Assembly (NCBI RefSeq): GCF_964204645.1
Contig: NC_134028.1
Coordinates: 8,928,001-8,992,000, forward strand
Direction of reading: 5' to 3'
Source: Tubulanus polymorphus
Lineage: Eukaryota; Animalia; Nemertea
DNA length: 64,000 nt
Shown: piece after piece, positions 1 through 64,000 of the stretch
Layout of the letters: every line of letters starts with the position of its first letter
How positions within the stretch are numbered: position 1 is the stretch's first letter
Translations under genes and position numbers: made by a program
The notes under the pieces: model-generated
What the model was told of the DNA's origin: nothing
The model's input: the letters and a program-made list of their open reading frames with translations, nothing else
The model's database searches: none

Positions 1-105
1 AAGGCATGAAAGTTGGAGATTTTGTGGCTTTTCGAAAGGATGATATATTGGTTGTTCAGTGGAAGGACAAAAGAGTTATCACCATGATAACCAATGGCCA
101 CAGAT
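1..105 (+). pseudogene. piggyBac (PGBD4-like) transposase internal fragment
   Basis: Reads GMKVGDFVAFRKDDILVVQWKDKRVITMITNGH, containing the W-x-D-K-R-x-I motif of piggyBac transposases. Cut off by the TIR at 106. Confidence 0.7.
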
Positions 106-902
106 CACGTTGACTGCCACTCAAAAAATTTTTTTTCTCAACATTGCCAATTTCACCAATCAACGAAAAGTAGGCGGAAACCACATACATTGATTTTTAT
201 TGCATTTAATGCATGTATTACACCTATTATATGGTGAAAACAGAGTTGAATCGAGTCTTGTAGTTGGCAGTGGGGGTAAACGTTTTATACCAGTTGCCAG
301 CTACGAGACTCGTTCCCCCTCCCCTAAACCCAGATGTTCCAGCAGCATTTCACTATCTTGCATGTGTTCCCCCATCAGATAGAAAGCAATACCCAACAAA
401 GCCATGTCGCATTTGCAGAAGAGATGGTAACCGCAAAGAAACACGTTACGTTTGTGATGTCTGTCCTGGAAAACCAGCATTATGTGTAACCCCTTGTTTC
501 AGGAGATACCATGTACAAAACTAAAGAAATGCCATGACAACAATGCTATAATTTCTATCGTACTATGTTTATTATCGATTCACAGTGAGGTGAATCATTT
601 CTTTCCACTTAGGAAAGGTATTTGATGCCTTATAAACTTTGATGTGAAAATAATCACGTAATATAATTTGATTTTTTAGATGTTCATAAATAAATAAAGA
701 ATTGATAAAAAAAGTTAGTTATTGATTTTTTAAAAATTACTTGTTTATCTGAGTTGCCAGACTTCGATTTATGTTGTTATCCACATTGCCAAACAGAAAA
801 AAAATGAATTCATTCACTCCGGGCTTACTACGAGATATCTCGTAGTGGCAAGGAGCGGTACACCTGCTACTACGAGATATCTCGTAGATGGCAGTCAACG
901 TG
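106..902 (+). mobile_element. Internally deleted non-autonomous piggyBac element
   Basis: Perfect 14-bp TIRs: CACGTTGACTGCCA (106-119) and TGGCAGTCAACGTG (889-902). TTAA at 903-906. Retains only the C-terminal Cys-rich domain CRIC..RKETRYVCDVC..LCVTPCFRRYH (to 524). Subterminal palindromes at 827-846 and 870-887. Confidence 0.8.
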
Positions 903-906
903 TTAA

Positions 907-1058
907 TGCAATTTCCAGGCACCTAAGACACAAAAATGACATTCTGCAACAATTCTTTAAGAGAAAAGAGAAACAATTTTTTCGCACTTTTTTAAAAAAG
1001 GCGCACAGAATTTACGACAGGAGCACGTGCTCCGCGTGCTCCCGTCTAGATCCGCCCC
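907..1058. mobile_element. Probable end fragment of a hAT-type MITE
   Basis: Ends in CTAGATCCGCCCC, the same terminus type as CCTGGATCCGCCCCTG at 58061-58076. Preceded by the GC-rich palindrome GGAGCACGTGCTCC (1020-1033). Confidence 0.35.
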
Positions 1059-1291
1059 GTACAGCTACACATATAATTGATAATTCAGTCAACAGATGGC
1101 AGCACGTCATAGACAATTGTACACATGTTTCTTTCAAGTTGTGCTTGTCCTACACGAAAGCCGAGATAGCTGAATAAAGGTAGGTTAAACTATTTATTTA
1201 GTGCAGTAATACCGGTGGCATGTAAAACAGTAGTTGTAGTAGTAAATAAAAAAATACAAAGATTACAGAGGTGCAATCATAATGATTATTC

Positions 1292-2821
1292 ATGCAGTAT
1301 GTTATGAGCTATGAGCGTGATCAACAAGATGATGATGAAGAATCAGCTCCAGTATCTCATGGAAATCAGGACAGTCGAGTGATGCTGATTCAACTGCATC
1401 GGATTCTGATGACGAAGTCCCACTTAATAACCTTTGATATGAATTCACAGACAACAGATTTGTGCCTCCAGCAGATATCGAATTTCGGGGAAATCAGCAG
1501 CCCCATGTGGCAAATCCTGGTAAAACACCATACATGTACTTCAAACATATTGTTACAAATGATATCATTGCATTGTTAGTCAATGAATCAAACCGATACT
1601 CTCTGGAAAAATATGGTAGATCAATCGAATAATCCAACGATGAACTTGAAAGTTTCATGGGTGTATTTTTCATCATGGGGCTAGTCCACATGCTTAGTAT
1701 GGTATCCTATTGGGAATGTGGCACACGGTATCTTGCAGTAGCTGACAATATGAGTCGTCAGCACTTTCAGAAAATTGCACGATACTTGCAAATCGTTGCC
1801 GAAAATACTGTGTCTAATGAAGAAAAGTAAAACGATCGTATCTGGAAAATGCGGCCATGGTTAGCTCATCTTTGGGACAGACTCGCTCTCGCTGAAGCTG
1901 AGGAATATCACAGCGTAGACGAAATCATGGTCGCCTTCAAGGGCCGGTCTCTACTTCGACAATATCTTCCCAAAAAACCAAAAAAGTTTGTGTTTCAGGC
2001 TGTATCTATGATTTTGATGTCTATCAGGGGAAAGGAACTGGAAGGAATCACCAACATTGCACAGCCGTCGAAAAACTGTAGTAGGGGGGCAATGTTGTGG
2101 TGCAGCTATGTTCAAAACTTGAATCTGCTCTGAACTACTAAGTGTTTGCAGACAATTTTTTCTCGAATTTTGAAGTGGTCAATCAGCTGAAGAAGAGGAA
2201 AATTTGGTACATCGGAACTGTTCGTTCTGATTGAAATCAGATAAAGCCATGAAGCAAAGTGAAAGAGGGAGCTACCACTGCATTGTTGAGAAGAATGGAA
2301 ACAACGCACTTGTGAAGTGGCAAGATAATAAAGCTGTCACATAGATTTCAAGCTTCATTGCAATTGGCCCAGTTTCAACAGTGTGGTGGTATGACCGCAG
2401 TAAGAAAGAGCATGTCAATGTGTACAGACCAGAGTGTGTTGCCACCTACAATAAATTCATGGGTGGCGTGGATCTTGGTGATATGATGTGCAGCCTCAGC
2501 AAGTTTCGGATGCGAAGCAAAAGATGGTATATGTACATATGGTACCATACTCTGACAATGGCTGTGACAAATGCATGGTTTCTTTATCACAGAGATATAG
2601 ATATACTAGAGGAGAGACACATGCCGAAGAAGTTGTTCCAGGCACAAGTGGCAGATGCACTGTGCAAGGCGGATAAAAAACCACGTGGCAGACCCCGAAC
2701 CGCTGTTGGCCCGGAAAACAGTTGCTGTGTCGGTGGATTTAGCTTCATTAAGTGTACAAAATGCAACATCCACTTGTGCCTTACCAAATCAAACAACTGT
2801 TACACTGAATATCATGGATAA
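1292..2821 (+). pseudogene. piggyBac (PGBD3-like) transposase pseudogene
   Basis: Motifs across frameshifts and stops: SVDEIMVAFKGRSLLRQYLPKKPKK, KWQDNKAVT, YNKFMGGVDLGDMM..RSKRWY, AVTNAWFLY, C-terminal CTKCNIHLCL..NNCYTEYH. Confidence 0.9.
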
Positions 2822-3280
2822 AAAGTTATTTCTGTATCAGATATACATAGGTATAAAATAAACTGCCTAGAATCATAAATAATGTGATTGTAATTTGTTT
2901 TTTTACAAAATTTTACCCCCTTAGACCATTGTAGCACTCCCGCTACAATTTGGAAATTAGGGGCCAATGTGATTTTTGACCTATCAGTTACTCTTTTTGT
3001 ACCTCCAGAACCAACATATCAAAAGGCCATATTTTTCCTGCTGCTTGATCTAGGTGTGGTAGAGATAGGGTGAAAGTGCCCACTCTGGGATGGGAAAGGT
3101 GCCATCACACACTCTCCTTTGACAAGTTTCCTAGATTGATCTGAGCTGTAAAGGGTTTAATTCCACTCTGGGACCAGTTCCACAGGTGAAGTGGTTTTGG
3201 GTATGACGATTAACTGCCCTCTTTTTGACTCGTTTTTTAATAACTTTATCACAAAATTTTATATGATTTTATTGTTTTAT

Positions 3281-6200
3281 AGCTAATCCACAGTGTGTGT
3301 ATTTTTTACTCTGGACCCAGTTTTGCAGTTCGTCAAACTTGGTTAAGTGTTTATGTGTTTTCAATGTGCTACATGTTATTCTTTATATAAATTTTTGTAA
3401 CTCCGGAATGGTACTAGTTCGGGGAGGGCTGCGGGGTTGGGGTTAGTTTAGGGTTCTTCCTTGATTACCTTCTTTAGCTCATCATCTGTACTGGTGGCGC
3501 TTACTCCCCTAGCCAATGTACCCCAACGGTTGTTTATTTATCTTTACATTTATAATCAAATATCGAGAACCACGATTAAACTACAAAACGGTCCAGTGTA
3601 ATTCAGTGTCGAGAACCGGAATCAAACGATGAACCAGACCAGTGTAATTTAGTGTCGAGAACCACAATGAAACTATGAACCGGACCAGTGTAATTCAGTG
3701 TCGAGAACCACAATCAAACAATGAACCAGACCAGTGTAATTAATTCAGTGTCCAGAACCGCAATCAAAAGATGAAACAGACTAGTGTAATTCAGTGTCGA
3801 GAACCACAATCAAGCGATGAACCAACAAACGTAATTCGGTGTCAAGGACTGTAATTAAACGATGAACCGCCCGATGTCATTTAGTGTCGAGAAACACAAT
3901 CAAACAATGAACTGGACCGGCGAAATTCTGTGGCATAATTAAAGGATTAACCCACCTATGTAATTCAGTGTCAAGAACCGGGATTAAACCATGAACCGGA
4001 CCAATGAAATTCCGTATGGGGAACCACTATTAAACGACGAACCGACCGATGTAATTCAGAGTAAAAAACCGCCATTAAACGATGAACCGGACCTATGTAA
4101 TTCAATGTCGAGAATCACTGATAAACAATATACTGGACCAATGTAATTTAGTATGGAGAACCACTATCAAACGACGAACCGGCCTGCGTTATTCAGTGTC
4201 AAGAACCACGATTATGGGATGATCTGGAGTTGTAATTGTGTTGAGCATTTGCATAGTGGATTGAGTGGAAATAGTTTAAAGGAGTTGAAACTGTTGTGAC
4301 TATCGTTTGTTCGCATCCAACAGAATCAACAAAGACATATCATATCATTCCTGTAGGCAAATGACCAAAGTGTTTCATAGCTAATCCACAGTGTGCGTAT
4401 TTTTTACTCTGGACCCAGTTTTGCAGTTCGTCAAACTTGGTTACGTGTTTTTGTGTTTTCAATGTGCTACATGTTATTTTTCATATAAATTTTTGTAACT
4501 CCGGAATGATACTAGTTCAACGCGGGGAGGGCTGCGGGGTTGGGGTTAGTTTAGGGTTCCTCCTTGATTACCTTCTTTACCTCGTCATCTGCACTGGTGG
4601 CGCTTACTCCTCTAGCCAATGTACCCCAAGGGTTGTTTATTTATCTTTACATTTATAATCAAGTATTGAGAACCACAATTAAACTATAAAATGGACCAGT
4701 GTAATTCAGTGTCGAGACCCGGAATCAAACGATGAACCGGACCAGTGTAATTCAGTGTCGAGAACCACAATGAAACTATGAACCCGACCAGTGTAATTCA
4801 GTGTCCAGAACCGCAATGAAACGATGAAACAGACTAGTGTAATTCAGTGTCGAGAACCATAATCAACCGATGAACTGGAAAAACTTAATTCGGTGTCAAG
4901 GACCGTAATTAAACGATGAACCGCCCGATGTCATTCAGTGTCGAGAAACACAATCAAACAATGAACTGGACGAGCAAAATTAGGTGGCAAGGACCATAAT
5001 TAAAGGATGAACCGACCTATGTAATTCAGTGTCAAGAACCGCGATTAAACCATGAACCGGACCAATGAAATTCCATATGGGGAACCACTATTTAACGACG
5101 AACTGACCGATGTAATTCAGAGTAAAAAAAAACGCCATTAAACGATGAACAAGACCTATGTAATTCAATGTCGAGAATCACTGATAAACAATATACTTGA
5201 TCAATGTAATTTAGTACATAGAACCACTATCAAACGACGAACCGGCCAGCGTAATTCAGTGTCAAGAACCACGATTATAGGATGATCTGGTGTTGTAATT
5301 GTGTTGAGCATTTGCGTAGTGGATTGAGTGGAAATAGTTTAAAGGAGTTGAAACTGTTAAAGTATTATTGGTGACTATCGTTCATTCGCCTCCAACAGAA
5401 TCAACAAAGACATATCATATCACTCCTGTAGGCAAATGACCAAAGTGTTTCATAGCTAATCAACAGTGTGTGTATTTTTTACTCTGGACCCAGTTTTGCA
5501 GTTCGTCAAACTTGGTTACGTGTTTTTGTGTTTTCAATGTGCTACATGTTATTTTTCATATAAATTTTTGTAACTCCGGAATGATACTAGTTCAACGCGG
5601 GGAGGGCTGCGGGGTTGGGGTTAGTTTAGGGTTCCTCCTTGATAACCTTCTTTACCTCGTCATCTGCACTGGTGGCACTTACTCCTCTAGCCAATGTACC
5701 CCAAGGGTTGTTTATTTATCTTTACATTTATAATCAAGTATTGAGAACCACAATTAAACTATAAAACGGACCAGTGTAATTCAGTGTCGAGACCCGGAAT
5801 CAAACGATGAACCGGACCAGTGTAATTCAGTGTTGAGAACCACAATGAAACTATGAACCCGACCAGTGTAATTCAGTTTCCAGAACCGCAATCAAACGAT
5901 GAAACAGACTAGTGTAATTCAGTGTCGAGAACCATAATCAACCGATGAACCGGAAAAACGTAATTCGGTGTCAAGGTACGTAATTAAACGATGAACCGCT
6001 CGATGTCATTTAGTGTCGAGAAACACAATCAAACAATGAACTGGACGAGCAAAATTAGGTGGCAAGGACCATAATTAAAGGATGAACCGACCTATGTAAT
6101 TCAGTGTCAAGAACCGCGATTAAACCATGAACCGGACCAATGAAATTCCATATGGGGAACCACTATTTAACGACGAACTGACCGATGTAATTCAGAGTAA

Positions 6201-8580
6201 AAAAAACCGCCATTAAACGATGAACCGGACCTATGTAATTCAATGTCGAGAATCACTGATAAACAATATACTTGATCAATGTAATTTAGTACGGAGAACC
6301 ACTATCAAACGACGAACCGGCCAGCGTAATTCAGTGTCAAGAACCAGGATTATAGGATGATCTGGAGTTGTAATTGTGTTGAGCATTTGCGTAGTGGATT
6401 GAGTGGAAATAGTTTAAAGGAGTTGAAACTGTTAAAGTATTATTGGTGACTATCGTTCATTCGCCTCCAACAGAATCAACAAAGACATATCATATCACTC
6501 CTGTAGGCAAATGACCAAAGTGTTTCATAGCTAATCAACAGTGTGTGTATTTTTTACTCTGGACCCAGTTTTGCAGTTCGTCAAACTTGGTTACCTGTTT
6601 TTGTGTTTTCAATGTGCTACATGTTATTTTTCATATAAATTTTTGTAACTCCGGAATGATACTAGTTCAACGCGGGGAGGGCTGCGGGTTTGGGTTAGTT
6701 TAGGGTTCCTCCTTGATAACCTTCTTTACCTCGTCATCTGCACTGGTGGCGCTTACTCCTCTAGCCAATGTACCCCAAGGGTTGTTTATTTATCTTTACA
6801 TTTATAATCAAGTATTGAGAACCACAATTAAACTATAAAACGGACCAGTGTAATTCGGTGTCGAGACCCGGAATCAAACGATGAACCGGACCAGTGTAAT
6901 TCAGTGTTGAGAACCACAATGAAACTATGAACCCGACCAGTGTAATTCAGTGTCCAGAACCGCAATCTAACGATGAAACAGACTAGTGTAATTCAGTGTC
7001 GAGAACCATAATCAACCGATGAACCGGAAAAACGTAATTCGGTGTCAAGGACCGTAATTAGACGATGAACCGCTCGATGTCATTTAGTGTCGAGAAACAC
7101 AATCAAACAATGAACTGGACGAGCAAAATTAGGTGGCAAGGACCATAATTAAAGGATGAACCGACCTATGTAATTCAGTGTCAAGAACCGCGATTAAACC
7201 ATGAACCGGACCAATGAAATTCCATATGAGGAACCACTATTTAACGACGAACTGACCGATGTAATTCAGAGTAAAAAAAACCGCCATTAAACGATGAACC
7301 GGACCTATGTAATTCAATGTCGAGAATCACTGATAAACAATATACTTGACCAATGTAATTTAGTACGGAGAACCACTATCAAAGGACGAACAAGCCAGCG
7401 TAATTCAGTGTCAAGAACCACGATTATAGGATGATCTGGAGTTGTAATTGTGTTGAGCATTTGCGTAGTGGATTGAGTGGAAATAGTTTAAAGGAGTTGA
7501 AACTGTTAAAGTATTATTGGTGACTATCGTTCGTTCGCCTCCAACAGAATCAACAAAGACTTATCATATCACTCCTGTAGGCAAATGACCAAAGTGTTTC
7601 ATAGCTAATCAACAGTGTGTGTATTTTTTACTCTGGACCCAGTTTTGCAGTTCGTCAAAGTTGTTTACGTATTTTTGTGTTTTCAATGTGCTACATGTTA
7701 TTTTTTATATAATTTTTTGTAACTCCGGAATGGAACTAGTTCAACGCGGGGAGGGCTGCGGGTTTGGGTTAGTTTAGGGTTCCTCCTTGATTACCTTCTT
7801 TAGCTCATCATCTGTACTGGTGGCGCTTACTCCCCTAGCCAATGTACCCCAAGGGTTGTTTATTTATCTTTACATTTATAATCAAGTATCGAGAACCACG
7901 ATTAAACTATAAAACGGACCAGTGTAATTCAGTGTCGAGAACCGGAATCAAACGATGAACCAGACCAGTGTAATTTAGTGTCGAGAACCACAATGAAACT
8001 ATGAACCCGACCAGTGTAATTCAGTGTCGAGAACCACAATCAAAGGATGAAACAGACTAGTGTAATTCAGTGTCGAGAACCACAATCAACCGATGAACCG
8101 GACAAACGTAATTCGGTGTCAAGGACTGTAATTAAATGGTGAACCGTCCGATGTCAGTGTCGAGAAACACATTCAAACAATGGACTGGACCAGCGAAATT
8201 CTGTGGCAAGGACCATAATTAAAGGATGAACCGACCTATGTAATTCAGTGTCAAGAACTGCGATTAAACCATGAACCGGACCAATGAAATTCCGTATGGG
8301 GAACCACTATTAAAAAACCGCCATTAAACGAGAATCGGACCTATGTAATTCAATGTCGAGAATCACTGATAAACGATATACTGGACCAATGTAATTCAGT
8401 ATGGAGAACCACTATCAAATGACGAACCGGCCAGCGTAATTCAGTGTCAAGAACCACGATTATAGGATGATCTGGAGTTGTAATTGTGTTGAGCATTTGT
8501 GCAGTGGATTGAGTGGAAATAGTTTAAAGGAGTTTAAAGAAGACATATCATATCACTCCTGTAGGCAAATGACCAAAGTG
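3281..8580. repeat. Higher-order tandem repeat: 5 x ~1.08-kb units, each holding ~13 diverged 46-bp subunits
   Basis: Unit starts (AGCTAAT) at 3281, 4379, 5454, 6529 and 7603. Subunit consensus CCAGTGTAATTCAGTGTCGAGAACCACAATCAAACGATGAACCGGA with period 46 (4696, 4742, 4788). Confidence 0.95.
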
Positions 8581-8654
8581 TATTATATGTATATAATTCT
8601 GAAAAAAGGTACTACTGGTTTAACCGATGTTGAACATAATCAAAATGTGTATTC

Positions 8655-8716: not shown

Positions 8717-9560
8717 AATTTCAATTTTGTATTACGTGGTAAATCAAGTTTATGTAAATAATTTAATACGTTAAGGGGAGGGGAGATGTTGATAGATGTT
8801 TATGGATGCTTCAACTTCAGTTACTATGTGCCACATCTGGTAAACATATATTTATGTCTTGTTCTCATGAGAATAAAATCATCATCAGTCTAGTACCAAC
8901 TCTCGCCTTGTTTGGTTGCTATTAAAGGCCCACTGGAAGTATAAAAGCCCAATGTCAGAGGATGCCATATCATGTGCTGAGCTCCAGCTTAGGTACATAT
9001 TTTCCTTGTTTTCTCTAAAACTAGGTTCATTTTCACCATTGTTTTTGTCAGATAGATAAATGAATGTTGTGGGAGGCGTTATCCAATGTAATTTATACCT
9101 CAAATGCAACCAATCAGCAAAAAATTTGAATTTTGAAGTTGGATTTACTGATATTTTGAACCACTGATTGACATAAAGCTCCTTCCACTAGAGTTGGTTT
9201 CCGGTGCTGAGCCATACTTCATCAGTTGTTGTTATCAGTGTCTTGATAAACAAACCTGTCATCGCCTCAAGTGGTTCTCCATATGATGTAATGTGATCTA
9301 TCAGGCAAATATGATAATAAAGATTAAACTTTTTTTTAGCAATAATGATCAAAATGCTTTAGATATATCTTTCATTTTGTGAGCTTTTTAACGGTACCAA
9401 ATATGATATGAATATCTGGATACTAGCCTATAAAATGATCCATACAGCATTCCATAGAAAAAGTCGTGACATACCTTGAAACTATTTTATTCAATATCTA
9501 ATCCAATTCATTTAAACTACTAGAACAGAAATAATTTCCAAACTGTAATAATAAGATAAT

Positions 9561-10113
9561 TTACTTCCACTTGTGTCCCATATATGGTTGATCAGCTAAA
9601 TTTGGATACCATGCCATACCATGATGATACACATTTCAGCACACAGTCCGGTAACATATCTCTCCGTACTAAACAGCAATTTTATGATTTTCTAAAGCAT
9701 CCAGTTTTTTCGCCTTGTATCAATTGCCTGCAACTGCATCCCGGTGGAACAACATGGTCCAGAACTTTCTATACGCGATTTTTCTCGGGCGATGATTTGA
9801 TTCATTGGGGACTCCGGGCTCACATTCCCACCACATTTGTCGATGACTTTCGTCAGTTTCACACAGCCGACAATAAGTTTTCACATTCTATGGCAGACTG
9901 GTCTTGCATGATGAGAAAGTTTGTATATTCATCATCACCGCATTCCTTTGCGGAGGATGGTAGTTCATCAATATCCCAGCAGTTGAAATTGATGAAATGA
10001 CGTATGGATTCTTCCTGCACTGGTGTCGCCATTATAGCAAACTTACGCTTCTGTGAGCGATTTCCATTATTTTCTGTCTCCATATAATCATTTTCTTCGC
10101 TGGATCCTGTCAT
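9561..10113 (-). pseudogene. KolX-like accessory gene (P2X7 C-terminal ballast-like domain), degenerate
   Basis: Minus strand across frameshifts reads ECEN..CRLCETDESHRQMWW..NHRPRKIAYRKFWTML...RRDMLPDCVLKCV..WY..PN..QPYMGHKWK*. R-x-x-AYR-x-F and P-x-CV...YP...Y-x-G match the ballast-type motif as I recall it. Confidence 0.7.
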
Positions 10114-10186
10114 TATATGAATTTACGTTAGAACTTGAGCAATAAACTAACTTAGAAGGAGCAGTTATCATACGCACTGACTATAT

Positions 10187-13100
10187 GTGACCCGTGCTGG
10201 CCAAATGAGTCGGAAGTCGCAGATATACATTCTGCAGTACAGTCGATTTAACTTGAATGGCTTGAAATTTTCGAAATTTTTATTTTCACAGAATTGCATT
10301 ATTTAATAAGTTTTCCATCGGAAACACCAATCAAAACTCGTAAAATATTATTTGAAATACACTTAAATCGACTTTTAAATAGTGTCTTCATTAAATCTTT
10401 CTTAAACCAAAGCAAATTTTGTCCAAAAACCGCTATTTTCATTCGCAAAAATTTCAATCTTGCCATGGGAATACCCCAACGAAATAAATATCTACTGAAA
10501 GCTCTCGTTATCTAGTTTCTAATAATGATGCAAAGAAATTCCAAATGACATCACTGTCAGCCAATCAGAAGCGAGAATCGGGGGGATATCCCATAAACAT
10601 CTACGCTTTGTTGCTATGAAGAGGTCACCGGACGCGAATACTGCGTTCTGATTGGCCGAGCGCTCGCTTCCGTTGTAAACAGTAAGCCAATTTTACTTCC
10701 GTGTTTGAATCCTCGTGTTTATACTGAACAATTGCGCTATTAAAATGGTTTTTTTTCGCTGTTTATCATCAAGTTACGTTATCAAAAGGTCAACATCTGT
10801 CAAATCATTGTTTACAGTGACGTTTTTATTCATTATGGCGCTTTCAAAGCTACAAAATAACGACGCAATCGCCCGTCAATTGAATGAACTTTCTAGAATT
10901 AATTTGCGTGGTACTACCGGCGTGTCAGATGAACAGTTGTCGAATTTAGTAAGTGATTATTTCATTTTTGGCTCAGATGATGAGTGTTCCTCTGATGAAG
11001 AGGATGATGAGGGAGAGGAGGAAGTGTTGAACTATGATTTTTTAGCTGATGATAGTGATGATAGGACTAATGTTTTGACGGCATCTCTTCATGAAGATAA
11101 TTATCCTGTATCTGACGACGACAGTGACAGCAGCAGCACTGATGATGAAATAATTCCTCTCAACCCCGTCAATGAGGTTGCCGCAATTATTAAAAAAATG
11201 TACAGACTCCTGATTCTGTGTTCAATAACGAGGAAGAACGCATCAAAACATTTTCGTGTAATTCTAAAAGCAACAGGTGTTCGTTAGCAAATGGCGAGCC
11301 ATGTTATGGCAAACTAGACAATAACTTTGTACGGACAATGCGCATGAACATGATAAGTTTGAACGATTATGAAAAGGACTTAATTTTACTGGGGAAATTG
11401 AGCACCACAATGAATCTATCAGAAATGACGGCCAAATCCAAGCGCAAGGAGCAGTCCAAACGTAAACAGCAGCGAACTGTCTATCTAGTGGAAGGGAAAC
11501 GGCTATGCAGAGAATCCTTCAAATTTCTTCATAGGTAGGTTATTATTATTATTATCTTGTTAATCATGATGTTAAAATGTAGGCGAGAACCGATAGGCCT
11601 AAGACTAAGTTTAGGCCTACTAATTTTCTCAATTTTCAAATAAAGCTGTGCCTTGGGAATGGGAAGCCAGTAATTGATGCTAGTAATGGTTGACCGTTGT
11701 TAGAATTCAGATTCTCTAATCCGTGAATACCACTGGCTCTGGACTAAGAATGGACTAAATTTTTTGAGAGAGTGCATGAATTGAATTAGCGACGCCATTT
11801 AGGCCTAAATAGGATTTCAATGTTTTTCATGATTTAATTTGCTTTGTTTCTTTTTTCAGCATCAGCCAAAACAAACTGACGGCAGTGATAAAGTTTTACA
11901 AAGAAAACAGGCTCATTCCACGGATAAAAAAAACTATCAGCCGGCACAAGTCTAATCCGCACTACCTGAAATATGACATTCAGCGAGTAGTCTAGTTTAT
12001 CGTCAATTTCGCAGAGGCACACGCTTTAGTTCTTCCTGGTAGAGTTCCCGGATTTAAGAGATTCGACATCAAATTATTGCCATCGACAGAAACCAAGGCA
12101 TCTGTTTGGAGAAAGTATAAAGCGGCTATGGAAGTTTTGGATAAGTGTATCAAAATAAATTTCCATTATATTAGCAAACAGACTGTCCATACAAACTGTA
12201 TTCATTGTCACAGATTGCCATTAGCAACCGAAATTTTCCCATTGATGGTCAGATCTGGTCAAGCCGTGACACTAGAATTATTTATGATTGTAGGCTACAT
12301 GTATTAGTTGCGCTGTGCATAATGGTTATTATAAAAATATACTCTTTTTCAGTGGTTCTGATGCAACCTTTTTATTATTTTAAGCATTATTTACTTATCA
12401 CAACTATATGTTTGTAGGGCAACGTGCGGTGAGTGCTCACTCGTTCAGGAGATTATGGAGAAATCTTGTACCCTTCATTGTGAGAACACGTACTATGACA
12501 GATTTGTGCTGGGTCTGTCATAAAAACAACACAGCAGTGTACCATAGTGCTAACCTAGCAGAAAATCAAAAAACGCAGCGAATTAAAGAACAAGAACAGC
12601 ACCTCCTTACAGTCTCTAAGGAGCGATCAGTGTACCAGGGCTTGGTCGAGGATGCCAAACGTGCAGTTGAGGATAAAAATTGGGATCTGGGACAGCATGC
12701 GCCCTCCTCAAAAAATGTGTCGATGCACTATTCTTTTGACTACGCCCAACAAGTACATTATCCGTCGGACCCAATGCAGCCAGGGCCCATGTATTTTCTT
12801 GTACCAAGGAAGTGTGGTTTGTTTGGAACTTGCTGTGAAGCTTTCCCCAAACAAGTCAACTTTCTCATCGATGAATCTGTTTGTGTCAGCAAAGGTTCTA
12901 ATGCAGTGATCTCATATGTTGATTATTTCTTCCGTCACTATGGTTTAGGAGAGACCAGTGTTCATTTGAATTGCGACAATTGTTCCGGGCAAAACAAAAA
13001 CAATTATGTTGTGTGGTACTTCTTGTGGAGAGTAATGTGTGGTCTTCATTTCCATGTTGAGCTGCATTTTCTGATTACGGGCCATACGAAGTTCGCCCCT

Positions 13101-42540: not shown

Positions 42541-42551
42541 GTTTAGACACA

Positions 42552-52330: not shown

Positions 52331-52528
52331 TGCCTGCAATGCACCTAAAACCAGTTTTGTATATTTTTTCAGTACCCGTTTTTGTCATGAAGTGGTCGCC
52401 TTAATTAAGATCTTCAGATATCTATTAACAACAAAAGTAAGTAGCTTCGGCAATTATTTAGTGCGATAATGTATCAAGAATCACTTATGCAACTGCTTTC
52501 TAATCGTTGTCATGTTTTCATTGTGTAG

Positions 52529-54699: not shown

Positions 54700-55025
54700 C
54701 ATGTAATCGGCAGTTATTAAGTGATGATGAGAATTCTGATGATGATAGGCTTTCTTTCATGCGCGATGAAATTGGGGATGTTTTAAAGCATGTCACGACA
54801 GCAACATCGTCTGCAGATGATGAAATGATCCGTATAAGTTTTTTTGCGTCAGTTAATCGTCGAAAAACACCTGTCGATTAAATGATGGAGAGCCGTGCCA
54901 CACTGCCTTTGAAAAGAAGGATATTAGAGACCTCAGGATGTCTATGAGCGCTCTACCAGAGTATGAAAAGGACTTGATTATCTTGGGCAAAATCAGTTCA
55001 TTCATGTTCAATGAGAAAATGACAG
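54700..55025 (+). pseudogene. Second Sola1 transposase fragment (N-terminal region)
   Basis: SKNTCRLNDGEPCH..LRMSMSALPEYEKDLIILGKIS aligns with SKSNRCSLANGEPCY..MRMNMISLNDYEKDLILLGKLS at 11260-11410. Confidence 0.8.
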
Positions 55026-55544
55026 TTACCTGTATGGACTGGTGTGTTGTTTTAAGGAGGGGTGCTCCTATCCTGTTTGTGCTGAAGATATGGTGGATCA
55101 TAGTATGGTATGGTATGAAAATGGCCCGCCCATAACTTTTATTCCTTGGCCATGTGTAGATGAGCTACAAAAACCATGCAAAGATTGTGAAATGTGTCTT
55201 GGGACATTTTCGTCCATATGAGAAATTACTCGAAATGCTTTAATATGTCTGAAACTAATGTTGACCCTGGAAATTGCCCGCCAACATTGGTTATTGGCTC
55301 TGTATTTGGAAAGAAGAGGGCTGAAGTAAATAAAGGTTCAGAAATGGCACGTGCTGGTCTCGTTCCTGAACTTGATGAACTCACTGCAAAAGATCTTTCA
55401 GCGAAGTTAAGCTTATCAACTGATCGTATCTATTATCATTACACCCATTTGGCACAGGTCCATAAGTCCCGAGTTTTTGGTGCACAAAAAGCTGCAGCAA
55501 CGTGTAGATCTTATCGAGCCCCTGAAAATGCTTATGTAGAATAA
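55026..55544 (+). pseudogene. C-terminal fragment of a Cys-rich transposase-type protein (possibly Zator-related)
   Basis: YLYGLVCCFKEGCSYPVC..WYENGPP..FIPWPCVD..CKDCEMCLGHF..HLAQVHKSRVFGAQKAAAT. Family assignment is tentative. Confidence 0.35.
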
Positions 55545-55613: not shown

Positions 55614-55819
55614 CATCCTCGCTTGTCAGGGTTTGATCGCCACACGAAGCTCACACCAACACTGTGCGCAAAGCCTTCATTTGTCTATAACAATGCCCAT
55701 AATTCCTTGCATCTGATTGGCTAGATACATAGACTGGTAGGCGCCAAGCCCAAGGAATTGTGGCTTTGTATTGGCGTGAGCTTCAGTGGGCGGCAATCAA
55801 ACCCTGGCAAGTGAGGATG
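55614..55819. mobile_element. 206-bp MITE with 9-bp TSD
   Basis: Imperfect ~45-bp TIRs CATCCTCGCTTGTCAGGGTTTGATCGCC... / ...GGCAATCAAACCCTGGCAAGTGAGGATG. TSD ATTTGTACC at 55605-55613 and 55820-55828. Confidence 0.88.
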
Positions 55820-56589
55820 ATTTGTACCTAAAAAGTGTAAACTTTGAATTGTGTTATAATCGCTTTTGGACAATTTCATTCTGATGCGAACAGCCATCAA
55901 GGGAATTTGTATTGCATCTTACATGTTGTTTTTTTTCCTTCAGGAATGAAACTGAAAACTAGAAGGTTGTAGACTGCTGGTAATCACTGAATGGTTTCAG
56001 TGTATTCATCATTCCATCAACGTTTGTAATACCAGTACATTATATTTGTTCTTCAGATTCAATCCCAAATGGATGCTATAGAAAGTAATTAGATTTTAAT
56101 AGTTTTATTGCTAAATATGAAGAAAAATTGTCTTTGTGTCAGATTTGACCTTGAAATTACTTAACGTTTTATAAATTTGCCAAGAAAAACATCTTAAAGA
56201 CAATGAATCCTTGATATCTCGGAAATGGGAATGTATATCAAAATAGAATTTGGCACTGCCATTTAATACAATTTTTCTTCAAATTTTATAGCAGTATAAG
56301 ATTCTGAAATCCGTGAAACTTCTTCTTAAATATAATCTGCATCATCTATCTGGGACTCACTTTAAAACAATGTCTGTACTGTTTAAGGTCTTGTACTGAC
56401 GGCTTGGTGTGTTATACATTTTAATTTTGGTAGACAATTATTAACACCTTTTTTTTTGGTCAAATATGGACAGACGTTCTCAAGTATGTTATTTCATGAT
56501 TTTCCACTTCATGTCATTGGAGGATTTTATGAAAAGCACCACTGCTAGAGCACCTTTTAATAGTTATACATTGTAAATTCAATAATGTT

Positions 56590-58076
56590 TGTTCACGTTC
56601 GCAATATACTATCATTGTGCGTCGCATGATTTAAACCTTGTGCTCTCTAAAGCCTGCGCCGTTCCTGAATTGCATAACATGGTATGTCTGTTGCAGTCTG
56701 TCGGTGCATTTTTTAGATATTCACCGAAGCGCTCACGTGAACTGGAGAAATGCGTTGATGAGATGAATGAAGATCCAACCAGAATAGAAAAAATTCAGAA
56801 ATCAAAAATAAAACTACCGTGTGAAACACATTGGGTCGAAAGGCATACTGCACTAGACGACTTTGCGGTATTGTGTGAACCACTGGTGAACTGCTTGGAA
56901 AGGATGAAACTAAACGAAAACTGGAGTTGGAACCCAAAAACTGGGACAGAAGCATATGGATTGCATGCTCAGATACAAACTTCTGGATTCATTGCAGCTT
57001 TTCAAATATGTCATCACATCTTCGGCTACACGAAAATCTTGTCGAAATTGCTCCAAGAACGAAAGATCGACATCGTCCGGGCGAAAGAACACATTGACCT
57101 AGCACTTACGAAAATAAAGAAGATTCGATCAAATGCTGAACCAGAGTTCAGAGTAGTGTTCACAAAGGCAGGGAAACTGGGCGTCACACTCGCAATACCC
57201 CGTCATTGTTCTAGGCAGACATTTAGGAATAATGTTGATGGTGAAACACCAGAAGTTTACTACAGACGCGCCTTCTTGCCTTTTATCGACACAGTGATCA
57301 GACAAATGACTGAACACTTTGGGCAGCTGTGGAAAACAGCCACGCAGGCGATGCATCTCATTCCAAGTTACTTGGAGAAAGTCAAACCGACAAGATACTC
57401 AACGAGATATATTCGTTTTACAAAGACGACATGCCTTCACCCAGTAGCTTCAAGCAAGAGGTTTGCTTATGGAAGCAATTCTGGGTTAGTGAGCCGGCTA
57501 AGTCATCAACGATCAGTGAAACGATCAGACACCCGAAGACACTGCCATTCGAGAATGTTTCTGCTGTAATGCATCTGCTCCTTGTCACTGCGTCCACGAG
57601 CGTGGAAGTTGAGAGGGCTAACTCGTCTCTCAAGTTCGCCAAAAATGACCATAGGTCGACGATGAATGAAGAACGCCTGAATGCTCTCGTATTGTTGTTT
57701 GTGCACCGTTACATAAAACTTGACTACAAGGTGATTATTGACAGTTATGCAAGGAAAAACACAAATGCTCATGTTGGATCCGCTCATGTTGGAGCAGATA
57801 AGAAAATATCTTTGATTGTAGGACAAGCGGCCTTTTTATTGTAAATAAACACACGCAGAACTTTCGTACTTCGTAGTTTATTACCTTATTTTATTATGTT
57901 AAAGATTTAAAAGAGAAAACGGTCAGTTTTTCAGACACATTATTTGAATTTTGGGTCTTTAGATTGTCTCAGAAAGAGTGTGTGAAGCAGAAACTTCGAA
58001 AATTTCGCGCTTCGGCAGGTAAGGAGATTGTCGAGATGGGCGCCCCCTCTTTCCTAGAAACCTGGATCCGCCCCTG
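56590..58076 (+). mobile_element. 5'-truncated hAT transposon (THAP12/ZMYM1-like transposase pseudogene plus right terminus)
   Basis: YYHCASHDLNLVL, FFRYSPKR, CETHWVERH; dimerisation domain VERANSSLK..RSTMNEERLNALVLLFVHR; one frameshift near 57380; terminus CCTGGATCCGCCCCTG at 58061-58076. Confidence 0.88.
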
Positions 58077-59538
58077 CTCTCCCCCCCCATTCTGCATTTA
58101 AATTGCCTTCAAACCCCAAAGGTATGGTTATTGTTATTCTTTTACTTTAATTGTTAGAAGGATATAAGAAAATTGTGCTAATACCCGTAATAATATGTAC
58201 CGCTATTTACATTTAATAATGGTAAAGCTCGGAAAAAAGCCAAAAACTTCCTAAATGGATATACCCTTTCCTCTGACCCTGGATCCGCCCCAAGCAAAGT
58301 TATTACTAACTACATTCTAGATAATCAGAAACTTAGCATTGCAGAACTTTGGGTTTTAGTAGTCTCTACAAATGTATCTTGGTATTATACCAAACGAACC
58401 TGCAAAAAACCCAGAGACAAGTTTTATCTCAAGGTTCAGCACTAGTGAAAATCTAGTGACATCGACGAGCGAAATCTCTGATACGGATTATTTTGATCAC
58501 AAGTAATGATTTTCGGCACATTTCTTGTAGTGTTACTTAGTTGCCAAGACCCTGCTATATTATATATTTTTGTAATTACTAGTCGTACCGATTTCTATTC
58601 AATATCTATCATTTATTGTATACGCACAGTTCGGAAGTTTACGGTAAATATCCGGAGATGTCGGCAAGTCGAACACGCGACACCTCTCATACGGTAAATT
58701 ATTTAGTTCCCAAGACTCTGTTCTTGTGTTAGAGAAAACTGATTTTCTACCCACTATTCGTACCGATCTTCATTCATTATCTTACATTTCTTTTAGATGC
58801 ACAGTTCGGAAATCAAGATCCATATTCTACAAACGGTAGATGCGATTGAAAGGAAACCAAAACCGCATCCTCATCAGCGTAATTTGAAATTGGATTGGGT
58901 AATTTCAAATATTGCTTAGGCAGTCACACTAAAGAAATGTGTCCAGCTTATGGCCAAAATTGTGGTTGTTAAACTCATTTCAAAGTTGCGTGGCACGGTA
59001 AAGCGAGAAATGATGGCCGAAGTCAAAGCCGTGTACTGAAACTGAATGAAGCAGTCTAGTATTGTCGATGGCTGAGATCGGATGTTGTGTTATTTGTCTC
59101 AGGATTGAGCATAAGGATCTAGAAGCTCGCTCAGACATCACATATGTGATACCCTGTATATCACATGTGTGAATTTTTTGTAAGAGTTCGCACACACACT
59201 TCGTTATTGCATAGATTTTCATGCCATTGCGTGAGGCTAATAAAGACAAAATCCTACTTGAAGTCCAATAGACTTTCTCCTTATCTCTCTCTTATGAACA
59301 AGCCTTAGTGCAGAGGGCTGAGTGTGTAATGACTTAGCTGATAAAAGATCCTCTTTAACTTGGCGATTGACTGTCCTAGCTCAAGCGACATTGTTATTGT
59401 TGGGCTTTCGAAAGTATTTCCTACACCTCAGGAGAATGTACATGGAAAAATACCCGGGCAAACTGAAAATGGCTGCATCAAGATTGGGTATGGTGATATG
59501 CAACTAGTGCACAAATTGCTACAGACCCTGCCACTGGA

Positions 59539-59773
59539 CTGTCAGAAGGCAGTCGTCATGGCCACTCCTGCAGATGCAGCTGCCAAGGACATGGCAGAAA
59601 GAGAACAATATTTTCTAGATATTACGGTCTCTAACCAAAAGTCCATTCCACTCTGGGCTGTCAGAAGGCAGTCGTCACGGCCACCCCTGCAGATGCAGCT
59701 GCCAAGGACATGGCAAAAAGAGAACAATGTTTTCTAGATGTTACGGCGTCTAACCAAAAGTCCATTCCACTCT
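59539..59773. repeat. 119-bp tandem duplication (2 copies)
   Basis: CTGTCAGAAGGCAGTCGTCA...AAGTCCATTCCACTCT starting at 59539 and 59658, with a few substitutions. Confidence 0.9.
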
Positions 59774-59798
59774 AAATAATACAGAGTTAATTGAAAAA

Positions 59799-59999
59799 TT
59801 GTGTAAAATGGTTGATTCTACTCAGATGTCCACATCTAGGGATAACACAGGGGTTGAAGGGAATTATCGGTCACGGGATCTATCCTTTAGGGATAATAGA
59901 CGAAAGCGGTCAAATGAAGGGAATGATCGCAATAGGTCTATTGTATGCAATTTCTGCAACAAGAAAGGGTATGAAGAAAGTGCTTTAGAACACCTATGA
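59799..59999 (+). pseudogene. Retroelement gag zinc-knuckle remnant
   Basis: An R/N-rich stretch followed by VCNFCNKKGYEES, a degenerate CCHC knuckle. Confidence 0.4.
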
Positions 60000-61013
60000 T
60001 TAGTTCAGGCAAGAGAAGGTCAGCACCAACCACATACGTTCCAACAACAATCGTATCGCCGAGGCCAGAGCCCATTTCGCCAACAGACTGTTCGATCATA
60101 TAACTGCAATTACTCGAATTAGAGTTGCCAATAAGACTAAGAAATTGAGAAAACTGAATTAAAATAGCGTGTTTGAGAAGTTTTTACTTGTTGTGCATTG
60201 AACTGTTTTTTGGCAAATCCCCAAAAAAAACTTGCAATAGAAAACAAACTACCAATGCATCAAACATTCCGTCAAATGATTGTGGTAAATGTACGTTAAC
60301 GACTGTCTCTTCAACAGCGTCACAACATTATAACACCAAGGATTGAGTTGTTCCAGTTACAAAAGTGGAACAGCAAAAAAGCGTAATAGTCTTTGACCAA
60401 AAGTTAGAGAGAAAGGAAGCGACTATACACAAGTAAAAATATCGTATAGGCATACTGGAAACAGATGATAAGATAATAAGAAAGAGAAGCCTTGTTCGCA
60501 TCACAAATTTCGCATGTCTCAAGACAACTGATACGTCGTTTTATCATATCTGTACAAAAATTGTTGACAAACAAAAATCAAACAACATGCCCACCAGCCT
60601 GGCAGTACCCATGGCATAACACAGTTCTATGATAAGCAGGTCGAGGACGACCGCTGATTGAAGTACGTACTTCGATTAATGCACGACCGTCGATCGGTGT
60701 ACGGCGTACTTCGTTCCAAGGACGATTGCTTCATACTAAACTACTAACTTTTAATTGTCCACAACACAATTAATACGATGAATTTCATTGGTTGATCAGG
60801 TGGAGACTAACCAATGAGAAGTCTTATTACAAATACACCTATTTCCAGCTCTCGGGATGAAATGAGGAAGTAAATTCAAGTAAATATCGATACATTTTTT
60901 GGAGTTTCGTCAGTAGAAGGTTCGTATATCATGAAATTGCACCATGAACCAAATATTTGGCAATTTAATTTGTTAGTTTTAGCTGTTGAGTTATAAGTTT
61001 GTCACACTTTTAC

Positions 61014-64000
61014 CAAGCTGAATTGTCTTTTTTATGTCAGGAAATGATTTTATAGCCGGTTTTTTCAACATACCTTGCATGCGTACTTGGATTGACGTAC
61101 ACCGTACTACAAAGCAAAGACGCTTAGCGTACTTAAAACGAAGGACGTCTTGGCTCAGTCCTTTATGAAATATTTACTTTTCTCTATACCAATTACAATT
61201 ATATCTATTTTCATTGTTTACAGTTGTTGATCCAGCGTTTGAAATGCCGTTTACAAAGAAGTGCGCTTCAGACTTGATGCATGTCGAATGGTCGTGTCCA
61301 GGCAATGAAAAATTGATATCGAAAGTACAATCAAATGTGAAGAAAAAACTTCTTGAGCTTGTGAACAAAGAAGAAAAAAGGCACTTCTCCAAATCGTTGC
61401 CCAGATTTTGCGAGAGTTGTATAAAAAATGTTAAAAAACATTATCCAAATTTGGTAGTGGAAGAATATGAGGGGATTCCTCACGGTGAAACAAATGAAGA
61501 TTTTGGTGACTAAGATTTGGGCGAGTCATCCCCGAAGCGCCAAAAGCAAAATGACACTATAAGCACTACTGAACATGCAGAAAGTATACCGACTGCTGGC
61601 ACTAGTACTGCTGGCACTAGTACTACTGGCGACTATTGTGCTTCCACCGTAAGTGAACTAGCCTATGACCTGGCCAAATCCCTACACAATGACGCCAAGT
61701 CATATGCATTAAGCCAAAGAAGACTAGGAGACTTAGAAGCTTATATATCATTGGATACAAAGGATGGACACACTGGAAGTGCATGTGACGTTATACAATC
61801 ATTCGTTAAAGGTATCGCATCCAGAAATGTTGAGAAAATGGACGAAAAATCTTTGCGTGCGCATTTGTATCGGATTTATAAAACTGTGGAGTGTATATTA
61901 AACTTAAGTGGTGTCAATTTCACATTACCTGCTCATTTAAGGGAATCAGTACTTATATACACCCTTACTGGGAGCAAACTAGCACTGAACATTCTTTCCT
62001 CTGGAGGCGCCCATGCCTCGTACCAAGCAGTTAAGTCTTGGTTGGCCAGCCTGGCTGCAACACCTCCTGGAATGTCAAATGATGACACAATCATAGCATT
62101 TGACAATAATCAGGTACTCCAAAGGAGGTGGAAAGTTAAGCTGAAAAACGATGTCACATGCAATATAGTTACTGTTGTTGTGAGCTTTAGTTTACATGAA
62201 GGCAGGTTACAATATCAAACCGAATTCAAGCCTGATAAGTGGTCAGATGTTGTACTACATCAATCAAAGTACAATAGAATTAAATTCTACGACCAGCAAG
62301 ATGATATTAAAGAAGCACATTATGAGCACCTCAGTTTATTCTTGCATTGACAAATTATGATTGTCAACAATGAGCATATGGAAGGTGAGGTGGACAACAT
62401 TGATGAAAAAGTTGAACTTAGGAAAAAATCAAGGTTATTCAAAAAATGTTATCAGTGTAAATTTGATGAAATACCAAAATCAAAGCATATTTGTACTCGG
62501 TGCAAGACAAATGTTACTAAAGGAAAAATGAAGGCCATGGGTCTTGACGAAAATGGAATGATTAACGAAAGTTCACTAGCATCAACACCCCATGGTAAAG
62601 AATATCGCGTTCATATTGAGCCAAGCCCGGCAGAAAGGCATGCTGAAAGACTTATTTCGAATAAAGAGCCTGCACAGGTTAGCCAAGAATATATTGATTT
62701 CGAAAAACTTGTAGCTGATTCCATAGATGCCCCATCTGTTCAAGTGTTGGAACCAGTTTATATGAACCCCTGTTCGTATGAAGCTGTAGCAGTCGTTCTG
62801 CGTAATATTGGACAAAGGTGTGGAATAAAACAGTATGGGGAGAGCGTGAGTGGGTTATTATAGCCTGTGATGGGGTTCCTTACACCCTTGCTTGCAGACT
62901 TATCAAATCGATGCACGTGTGTTCAATTTGTAATGATTCTATTAATGGACTTGAAAACTGTGCAAAGCATCACACAGATCAGCATCCAGGTGAACAAGTC
63001 TTATTTAAACCAGAATTCAGCTGGGTTTTGCTGAGACCAGGTACGGGACATATTTAAATGAATATGTTAAAAGGTCTTGTTGAATTTACATGGGATGTAT
63101 TTTGGAAAGATTTGGCAATATGCCTAAATTTTCGCTCTGAAGCAGCTTTGACTGGTGCAAAAAAAGTGTCTGATCATCATAAAGGTTGGACTCTACTCAG
63201 GATTGCGCGCTATGCTATTGCACGTGAATTAATTGTTCCGTTTGTAAGAGAACAGCGTAAAAAGGAAGTTGCAGATCTATCTGTTGCTGCTTTCATGAAG
63301 TTCATTATGCATTCAAAAGACCCTAATTACTCTTTCATGGCAGACGTTCTTTTTGAACTAGTTGATGCGATATTTATTTTCAGAGTAGGTATACGCGGAA
63401 GTATTTCAAAATACATTGAAGCTGGTAGAGCCAAATTTGCTAAGCTGTGGTGTGCACGAAACCACCCGCTCTACAGGGAACTTGAAATGTCAGACAGTTT
63501 ACTGTTAGCAAGAATGCCACAAGAAATTAGTGATGAGGTCCTATTAGCAGATTCAATGAACATGACAGGGAATAAGTTTACAGGGGAAGGAGCAGACTTC
63601 CGCCTGGAAGAAGTCAACAGGCAGGTGCAGCATTGGCTGCCTAACATTCCAACAAGCAAGGATTGGAAAATTGCATGTTGCAATTATGGTAGCTTGTCTC
63701 AGTTCAGAACAACAGTTTTTCAGCAAATTGGAATTGAAGATCCCAAAACGAATAGAAAGAAAAGTATTCAACCCATAAATGATGAAATACTAGCATTCAG
63801 GACCATAATTAGAGAGGCAGAGTACCTCATAAGGCCAGCAATCTATCGTCCGCATGTCTCACTTGATGGGAAGCCACTTACAACTGATTTAGTCAGCTTT
63901 TGCAAATTGGCAAGAGAAAAACGTGCACTATTTACTGATACATATTTGGCATTCGAGAAATCGGCAAAAACGGGTAACGCAGGTCCACCTTCATTTAGGG
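61014..64000 (+). pseudogene. Academ-like large transposase pseudogene, running off the window end
   Basis: IIAFDNNQV; EPVYMNPCSYEAV..VLRNIG; WVIIACDGVPY; LRPGTGHI*MN; SDHHKGW; NHPLYRELE; GEGADFRLEEVNR; Cys4 motif CYQC..CTRC. Stops at 61511, 62348 and 63055, frameshift near 62840. Confidence 0.6.

What the first reader, a model, noticed from the sequence alone, without database searches (positions are those of the whole stretch)
1..64000. Nearly all transposon fragments face the same strand: candidate uni-strand (flamenco-like) piRNA cluster rich in DNA transposons
Seen: counting the triplicated unit once, at least 15 TE coding fragments all read on +. They are piggyBac x3, Sola1 x2, Kolobok, LINE RT, SGNH, Gypsy, MADF, DUF6729-type, BEL, Copia, hAT and Academ-like. 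The only minus-strand gene is the KolX-like partner of Kolobok. If insertions were independent and random, 15 of 15 on one strand has a two-sided probability of 2 x 0.5^15 (about 6e-5). Known: strong antisense bias of nested, decayed TE fragments marks uni-strand piRNA clusters such as Drosophila flamenco, which is LTR-dominated. Inference: this locus may be a TE trap transcribed from the - strand, covering about ten superfamilies including many cut-and-paste DNA transposons.
Basis: partly seen in the sequence, partly recalled or inferred. Interest (0 to 1): 0.85.

Follow-up and report, generated by a model that had tools for sequence, protein, structure and literature searches.

The report
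One-way transposon pile, likely piRNA source
In this 64-kb stretch of what is likely a marine invertebrate genome, all eleven jumping-gene remnants whose direction could be confirmed point the same way, a layout already known from loci that make transposon-silencing small RNAs (piRNAs), which this one likely does from the opposite strand, although no RNA data were available to test it.

Summary
The polarity is real. Eleven separate elements confirmed by profile or homology read on +: two piggyBac, two Sola1-like, Kolobok, hAT, Academ-like, a DUF6729 element, Gypsy, BEL and Copia (two-sided p about 1e-3). Two weak Pfam hits and five motif-only pieces agree (18 of 18, about 8e-6). No transposon family was found among 150 of 161 minus-strand ORFs of 50+ aa. 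The only minus-strand gene is the Kolobok's own partner, also present in 4 of 9 related loci. Target-site duplications show that Kolobok, Sola1, BEL and a MITE each came by their own transposition; old and young copies share the direction. About 79% of the non-redundant sequence is transposon or tandem repeat, with no host gene found. Best reading (0.6): a uni-strand piRNA source transcribed from the minus strand. No RNA run or genome was available, so function and genome background are untested; a giant intron or a scan-selected chance run remain possible. The layout is known from slug clusters, and snail clusters rich in Kolobok/hAT are published, so this is a new member of a known kind, not a flamenco homologue. 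The scan noted similar loci in other genomes.

The parts
1..521 (+). piggyBac-type transposase, 3' part (element A)
   Evidence: Pfam zf-Tnp_2 E 1.2e-8 on 264-521; C-terminal cysteine motif
1438..2818 (+). piggyBac-type transposase, broken (element B)
   Evidence: Pfam DDE_Tnp_1_7 on four ORFs, best E 2e-10; no terminal repeats found
3273..8587 (.). Five tandem copies of a ~1075-bp unit holding a 46-bp minisatellite
   Evidence: Self-blast, TRF; copies 94-98% identical
8926..17380 (+). Whole Kolobok element with two nested insertions; transposase 14677-17122 on +
   Evidence: TTAA on both sides, AG...CT ends, 10/11-nt terminal repeat; HMM positions 4-526 of 527; several stops
9549..10092 (-). 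Kolobok partner gene (KolX-like), broken; the only minus-strand gene
   Evidence: tblastx to partner ORFs in 4 of 9 related Kolobok loci, 41-44% over ~60 aa in three of them; divergent from the transposase in L002, L004, L008, downstream same-strand in L001. No Pfam hit; the name KolX is by analogy with PMC9587614
10187..14440 (+). Whole Sola1-like DNA transposon inserted between the two Kolobok genes
   Evidence: 29-nt inverted repeat, 97%; ATAT duplication; DUF7869 E 4.7e-9. The label Sola1 is recalled, from no call
15547..16673 (.). 1127-bp unidentified insertion splitting the Kolobok transposase; direction unknown
   Evidence: Homologous coding resumes exactly across it; no Pfam hit on minus read-through
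17465..40330 (.). Recent tandem triplication, 3 x 7620 bp
   Evidence: 99.97% identity; 1-2 substitutions; exact-match contigs at depth 99-120 here vs 34-43 in single-copy parts of run X1
17724..18071 (.). 348-nt foldback: high-copy MITE-like core (about 17781-18014) plus a 57-bp mirrored RT stretch
   Evidence: 142-nt arms, 94% complementary; -250.7 kcal/mol, z -34; very high contig depth
18015..18400 (+). LINE reverse-transcriptase fragment (motif only)
   Evidence: YADD, LKINVEK and YxLG-type motifs in order on +; motifs recalled; not confirmed
18749..19149 (+). SGNH-like fragment fused to the Gypsy piece (motif only)
   Evidence: Motif at 18950; no Pfam or PDB hit
19150..19970 (+). Gypsy-type integrase fragment
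   Evidence: Pfam rve E 1.3e-5; SDNG motif; Gypsy label from recalled domain order
20640..21000 (+). Second SGNH-like fragment (motif only)
   Evidence: Motif at 20839 and codon score 6.1; no Pfam hit
22476..22918 (.). High-copy inverted-repeat element holding a tRNA-like (SINE-type) head on + at 22704-22770
   Evidence: 59-nt arms; A-box/B-box pattern; contig depth about 5000
22955..23155 (+). MADF-like fragment (weak)
   Evidence: Pfam MADF E 0.0072
23781..50266 (+). DUF6729 element, cut by the triplication and by the BEL insertion; transposon class uncertain; ends approximate
   Evidence: Pfam DUF6729 E 6e-39; related copies and an empty BEL site in X1 contigs, loose end at 50266; no paper held names DUF6729
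42052..48214 (+). Young BEL/Pao retrotransposon; one long ORF that ends early in its last domain; no leader between LTR and ORF
   Evidence: Seven Pfam domains; 489-bp LTRs with 4 differences, ATCTT duplication
51181..52332 (.). 164-bp tandem repeat array
   Evidence: TRF, self-blast
52529..52964 (+). DUF1280-like ORF (weak), abutting the Copia piece
   Evidence: Pfam E 2.5e-4; codon score 0.085 per codon
52965..54850 (+). Copia-type gag-integrase fragment
   Evidence: Pfam zf-CCHC, Retrotran_gag_2, gag_pre-integrs E 2.7e-8, rve
54857..55024 (+). Second Sola1-like fragment
   Evidence: 46% identity over 56 aa to the first
55191..55541 (+). Unidentified coding-like ORF
   Evidence: Codon score 0.105 per codon; only a doubtful Pfam hit
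55614..55819 (.). MITE with 28-nt inverted repeats and a 9-bp target duplication
   Evidence: contig depth about 940
56586..57841 (+). hAT transposase fragment
   Evidence: Pfam Dimer_Tnp_hAT E 4.9e-4
58880..59990 (+). Two gag-like remnants (motif only)
   Evidence: Zinc-knuckle-like motifs at 58940 and 59946, codon scores up to 7.8; no Pfam hit
61169..64000 (+). Academ-like transposase, few lesions, runs off the window
   Evidence: 32 homologues, best E 6e-121, five carrying PF20231; HMM 1-908 of 1005; 3 stops and one frame change. The label Academ is recalled

Best explanation
The window is a dense pile of transposon insertions whose coding strands all face one way, and it is likely part of a uni-strand piRNA source locus that would be transcribed from the minus strand, from a start beyond position 64000, so that its RNA would be antisense to these elements and would be cut into silencing piRNAs. 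Shown: the polarity, the density, the nested insertions with target duplications, the mix of decayed and young copies, deletion-joined fragments and local tandem amplification. Inferred: transcription, its direction, processing into piRNAs, and that polarity arose because antisense insertions were kept (they add silencing guides and carry no sense polyadenylation or splice signals) while sense ones were lost.
For: 11 of 11 tool-confirmed elements on +; p about 1e-3, or 8e-6 with weak and motif-only pieces. A strand-symmetric codon model agrees: outside confirmed coding, 14 plus vs 4 minus of 245 overlapping windows score above 4 (shuffle means 1.8 and 0.9), and three of the four minus windows lie in the Kolobok's own partner gene or left end. 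Separate enzymes made the insertions: duplications TTAA, ATAT, ATCTT and a 9-mer. Young (BEL LTRs 4/489 differences) and decayed (Kolobok) copies agree. 79% of 48,754 non-redundant bases are transposon or tandem repeat; no host gene family found. 7 of the 11 are cut-and-paste elements, the class least biased inside human genes (PMC1391917, passages), so intron-type selection fits poorly. A top slug cluster makes piRNAs from the minus strand over dense plus-strand TE fragments (PMC11615739, passages).
Against: No direct evidence of transcription or small RNA. No depletion of AATAAA or ATTAAA on the minus strand (35 vs 30.8 and 36 vs 29.8 expected), so the sequence gives no sign of the direction. 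No genome background, and the window was chosen from a very large scan, which weakens p of 1e-3. Seven of the 18 pieces are weak or motif-only. Nested and deletion-fused pieces may not be fully independent. About 21% of the non-redundant sequence and the 1127-bp insertion have no assignable direction. The Kolobok partner gene would be read in sense. Large clusters are not universal: none over 20 kb was found in the annelid Capitella (PMC8915122, passages).
Confidence: 0.6

Rival explanations
1. The window lies inside a very long intron or read-through tail of a minus-strand host gene; sense insertions were purged because they disturb transcription, and the region is not a notable piRNA source.
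For: Repeats inside genes are biased to antisense in human and mouse (PMC1391917). CpG transitions among the five in-place tandem copies, 17 of 82 CpG positions vs 13 of 299 other C/G positions (p 1e-5), point to germline methylation, which in invertebrates is concentrated in gene bodies (PMC8857917, passages). With a 70% bias, 11 of 11 has probability 0.02.
Against: [quoted passage not shown] No exon was recognised in 64 kb. With 18 pieces the probability at 70% is 0.0016. The same methylation paper finds intergenic transposons methylated in some cnidarians, so the CpG signal does not prove a gene body.
Confidence: 0.2
2. An ordinary heterochromatic transposon graveyard whose one-way look is a chance run, picked out by a large scan and helped by nesting and deletions.
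For: Only 11 elements are confirmed (p about 1e-3; 10 and 2e-3 without the two-gene Kolobok), and the scan covers some 250,000 windows by the look-up tool's description. No genome background was available.
Against: Every further weak, motif-only and unidentified coding-like piece, and a SINE-type head, also falls on +; polarity holds from base 1 to base 64000.
Confidence: 0.12
3. Polarity is mechanical: insertion direction set by a nearby replication fork or transcription, or the pile is cargo of one large composite mobile unit.
For: Several fragments are fused end to end without spacers (SGNH-like to integrase, DUF1280-like to Copia, Copia to Sola1-like).
Against: Four different target duplications show separate insertions. 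Long junction-spanning contigs lie at single-copy depth in X1 (58000-60666 at 42.8; 60641-64000 at 43.1), so the mosaic is not a repeated unit. I know of no shared orientation mechanism for DDE transposases of five superfamilies and LTR integrases (own knowledge).
Confidence: 0.08

Closest known systems
Uni-strand piRNA clusters of slugs (Arion vulgaris, PMC11615739; Deroceras laeve, PMC12506671; passages read)
   Same: Densely packed transposon fragments on one strand with piRNAs made from the other (stated for a top Arion cluster); unidirectional clusters are typical.
   Different: Those are defined by mapped small RNAs; here none could be mapped. The passages read do not give the superfamily make-up.
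piRNA clusters of Lymnaea stagnalis and Crassostrea gigas (PMC6128900; passages read)
   Same: Enriched in Gypsy and DNA transposons such as Kolobok and hAT (Lymnaea, 59% transposon), and in BEL and Academ (oyster cluster classes); young copies favoured.
   Different: The main text holds no statement on the strand of insertions ('strand' 0 occurrences); supplements were not read and may bear on it.
Drosophila flamenco and flam-like clusters (PMC10643416; passages read)
   Same: One-way transposon fragments opposite to the inferred transcript; detected from genome strand bias alone.
   Different: [quoted passage not shown]
Read-through piRNA clusters: mosquito core clusters (10.1101/2022.08.22.504762) and mammalian piC-DoGs (PMC11615739); passages read
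   Same: Uni-strand precursor capturing antisense foreign fragments.
   Different: They start from an upstream host gene; no gene or edge lies in this window, and no virus-derived fragment was identified.

Membership tests
Uni-strand piRNA cluster | High density of uniquely mapping 24-32-nt, 1U small RNAs | not testable with these tools
   No RNA holder listed
Uni-strand piRNA cluster | Small RNAs and long precursor from one strand | not testable with these tools
   No RNA; polyadenylation and splice-motif counts gave no direction
Uni-strand piRNA cluster | Transposon fragments co-oriented | tested here: met
   11 of 11 confirmed on +
Uni-strand piRNA cluster | Transposon density and bias above genome background | tested here: inconclusive
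   79% repeat in the window; no genome for the background
flamenco / flam-like cluster | Strand bias driven by Gypsy-family LTR elements | tested here: not met
   1 Gypsy among 11 confirmed elements, 7 cut-and-paste; definition from PMC10643416
flamenco / flam-like cluster | Expression in ovarian somatic cells of Drosophila | not testable with these tools
   No RNA; CpG hypermutability and bivalve-named homologues argue against a fly host
Read-through cluster (piC-DoG) | Begins at the 3' end of a co-oriented expressed gene | not testable with these tools
   Polarity runs off both ends; no flanking sequence held
Kolobok superfamily (element 8926-17380) | TTAA target duplication, RR...YY ends, DDD/E transposase | tested here: met
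   definition from PMC9587614
Kolobok superfamily (element 8926-17380) | Second gene is KolX (P2X7 ballast fold) | tested here: inconclusive
   A shared partner gene in 4 of 9 related loci, but no Pfam hit for it or for those partners

The most novel reading that the evidence does not exclude
This is a piRNA trap in which selection has polarised cut-and-paste DNA transposons of five or more superfamilies as strictly as flamenco polarises Gypsy elements, and which grows by local tandem amplification (a fresh 7.6-kb triplication that also triples a 348-nt hairpin). If so, one-way DNA-transposon piles would mark piRNA source loci in animals that have no small-RNA data.
Probability: 0.25. Interest if true: 0.6.

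Novelty: new member of a known kind. Interest (0 to 1): 0.4.

Why it matters
If confirmed, it is a readable record of which transposons this animal's piRNA system has captured, and a test case for whether antisense retention acts on cut-and-paste elements, which ordinary intron selection hardly polarises. The general kind of locus is already published for slugs, snails, mosquitoes and flies, so the gain is one more example and a clean test, not a new system.

Tried and rejected
No whole genome held: no background, edges or promoter. No RNA holder listed; the four runs are contigs from one study and X1 may be the source sample, so they are not independent support. Polyadenylation and splice-site counts against 200 local dinucleotide shuffles: no strand signal. 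Pfam on short ORFs (30-49 aa) in gaps: no transposon family in 146 minus or 147 plus ORFs, so the test is insensitive there. Third piggyBac, LINE RT, SGNH and gag pieces: not confirmed by Pfam read-through, PDB or viral contigs; Gypsy, piggyBac-B and DUF1280-like queries also found no viral-contig relatives. Plus ORF 9560-9997: no homologue among 74 candidates; it is the shadow of the minus-strand partner gene. Minus ORF 8888-9187 looked coding-like, but it crosses the Kolobok's left end and its one hit among 1.84 billion proteins is a repetitive fibronectin-type protein at 30% over 63 aa; rejected as a gene. My first guess of a KolX remnant at 17130-17470 had no support. No tRNA gene; only a chance hairpin match in Rfam. 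The protein Atlas gave no answer. No earlier notes on this genome or look-alike DNA. Paper searches; others (five terms together; DUF6729) returned nothing. I saw passages only, no whole texts and no supplements.
Full report
What was checked. The window is 64,000 bases, about 40% G+C. No genome is held. Self-comparison shows a 7620-bp unit repeated three times at 17465-40330, five copies of a ~1075-bp unit at 3273-8587, a 489-bp LTR pair and a 164-bp array. Later counts use one copy of the triplication.

Strand test by profile. Of 152 plus-strand stop-to-stop ORFs of 50 aa or more I scanned 150; 13 hit transposon families at E<=1e-3: piggyBac, DUF7869, integrase, DUF6729, BEL domains, Copia gag and integrase, hAT. 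Of 161 minus-strand ORFs I scanned 150, leaving out 11 opposite the BEL ORF; none hit a transposon family. Shorter ORFs in the gaps gave nothing on either strand (146 minus, 147 plus), so very decayed pieces would be missed on both strands alike.

Strand test by homology. Homologues were fetched for two elements without Pfam hits: 32 for the last ORF, five carrying PF20231, and 25 for the Kolobok ORF, the named ones from Mytilus and Ruditapes. Against the window they gave 148 segments on + and none on -. A second Sola1-like piece matches the first. The confirmed set is 11 elements, all +: two piggyBac, two Sola1-like, Kolobok, hAT, Academ-like, DUF6729, Gypsy, BEL, Copia. The labels Sola1, Academ and Gypsy are recalled from domain and repeat features, not from a call. 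The bivalve names suggest a marine invertebrate host but transposases cross phyla, so the host is not identified.

Weaker pieces. MADF and DUF1280 are weak + hits. LINE RT, two SGNH-like and two gag-like remnants match recalled motifs on + only, apart from a mirror copy of YADD; a loose zinc-knuckle pattern also matched twice on minus, opposite confirmed + coding. A tRNA-like head lies on + at 22704; one weaker A/B-box match lies on minus at 50435. A third piggyBac was not confirmed. A codon model trained on confirmed ORFs picked the true frame in all 21 held-out ORFs. Outside confirmed coding it scored 14 plus and 4 minus of 245 overlapping windows above 4, against shuffle means of 1.8 and 0.9.

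The minus-strand items. One minus window falls in a broken gene at 9549-10092. Nine related Kolobok loci were fetched; four carry a homologue of this gene, three divergent from the transposase as here and one downstream. The element runs 8926-17380 with TTAA on both sides and AG...CT ends, as Kolobok is defined (PMC9587614, passages). Two minus windows belong to an ORF that crosses the element's left end and has no credible relative. The fourth lies in a non-coding repeat. The mirror YADD is a 57-bp inverted copy beside a MITE-like core; together they form a 348-nt foldback.

Independence and age. Target duplications remain for Kolobok (TTAA), the Sola1-like element nested in it (ATAT), BEL nested in the DUF6729 element (ATCTT) and a MITE (9 bp). 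These are separate transposition events, though a nested element could have entered its host before the host arrived. BEL is young (4 differences in 489 bp) while Kolobok has several stops and two insertions. Other pieces are fused end to end, as after deletions. In run X1, exact-match contigs lie at depth 99-120 in the triplicated unit and 34-43 in single-copy parts, which fits a real triplication; the tool warns that depth is no copy number and X1 may be the source sample.

Statistics. Two-sided p is 9.8e-4 for 11, 2e-3 for 10 without Kolobok, 7.6e-6 for 18. The window was selected from a very large scan and no genome background exists, so chance is reduced but not excluded. About 79% of 48,754 non-redundant bases are transposon or tandem repeat; no host gene family was found.

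Mechanism. Shown: polarity, density, in-place insertion, mixed ages, local amplification. Inferred: a long minus-strand transcript starting beyond 64000, antisense to the transposase, gag and pol sequences, processed into piRNAs, with antisense insertions retained. Sequence tests for direction failed: polyadenylation and splice motifs match shuffles on both strands. CpG transitions in the tandem array (17 of 82 vs 13 of 299) show germline methylation here, which fits a transcription unit in a mosaic methylome but also methylated intergenic transposons (PMC8857917, passages). No RNA holder was listed, which is no evidence either way. The main rival is a long intron or gene tail with purifying selection only. 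[quoted passage not shown]

Comparison. A top Arion slug cluster makes piRNAs from the minus strand over dense plus-strand fragments (PMC11615739); Deroceras clusters are typically unidirectional (PMC12506671); 402 of 457 Nematostella clusters are unistranded (PMC5731801); many top Aedes clusters hold co-oriented transposons (PMC3259105). Lymnaea clusters are enriched in Kolobok and hAT and oyster classes in BEL and Academ, without a statement on strand in the main text (PMC6128900). flam-like clusters owe their bias to Gypsy alone (PMC10643416), a feature not met here. All papers were seen as passages; supplements were not read and may give cluster make-up by strand. My ten searches did not turn up a report of strict polarity specifically among cut-and-paste elements in such a cluster, but they were few and the library is partial. 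The scan's notes list 46 similar findings in at least 5 genomes; they gave leads to papers and are not support.

Verdict. Observation largely confirmed with a smaller firm count; likely a uni-strand piRNA source (0.6); new member of a known kind; interest 0.4.

Noticed in passing
window 18805-23339: A contig of run X2 (another sample) joins 18805 to 23339 with nine letters between, possibly an allele or paralogue lacking 4.5 kb, which would mean structural polymorphism.
   Followed up: no
window 42052-48214: In X1 the BEL internal region lies at single-copy depth (37) while the LTR lies near 144 with three contigs ending at its edge: this may be the family's only full copy, with a few lone LTRs elsewhere. 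Depth is a rough guide only.
   Followed up: partly
window 17724-18071 (and 25344-25691, 32964-33311): A 348-nt near-perfect foldback, tripled with the unit; it would give long double-stranded RNA on either strand.
   Followed up: partly
window 17465 / 25085 / 40330: The triplication joint shares a 6-base stretch (GGTAGT) between its two ends, suggesting microhomology-driven duplication.
   Followed up: partly
window 3273-8587: Five ~1075-bp copies, each with a 46-bp minisatellite; differences are enriched at CpG. Origin and direction unknown.
   Followed up: partly
window 15547-16673: Unidentified 1127-bp insertion in the Kolobok transposase, with an 11-nt inverted repeat near its ends and no clear target duplication.
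   Followed up: partly
L001 vs L002, L004, L008: The Kolobok partner gene is divergent and upstream in three related loci but downstream and same-strand in L001; neither arrangement's partner hits Pfam.
   Followed up: no
window 23781-50266: The DUF6729 element is multi-copy and decayed like a transposon, yet no held paper names the domain; its superfamily is open.
   Followed up: partly
window 55191-55541: 117-aa coding-like plus-strand ORF with the highest codon score of the unknowns and no credible family.
   Followed up: partly
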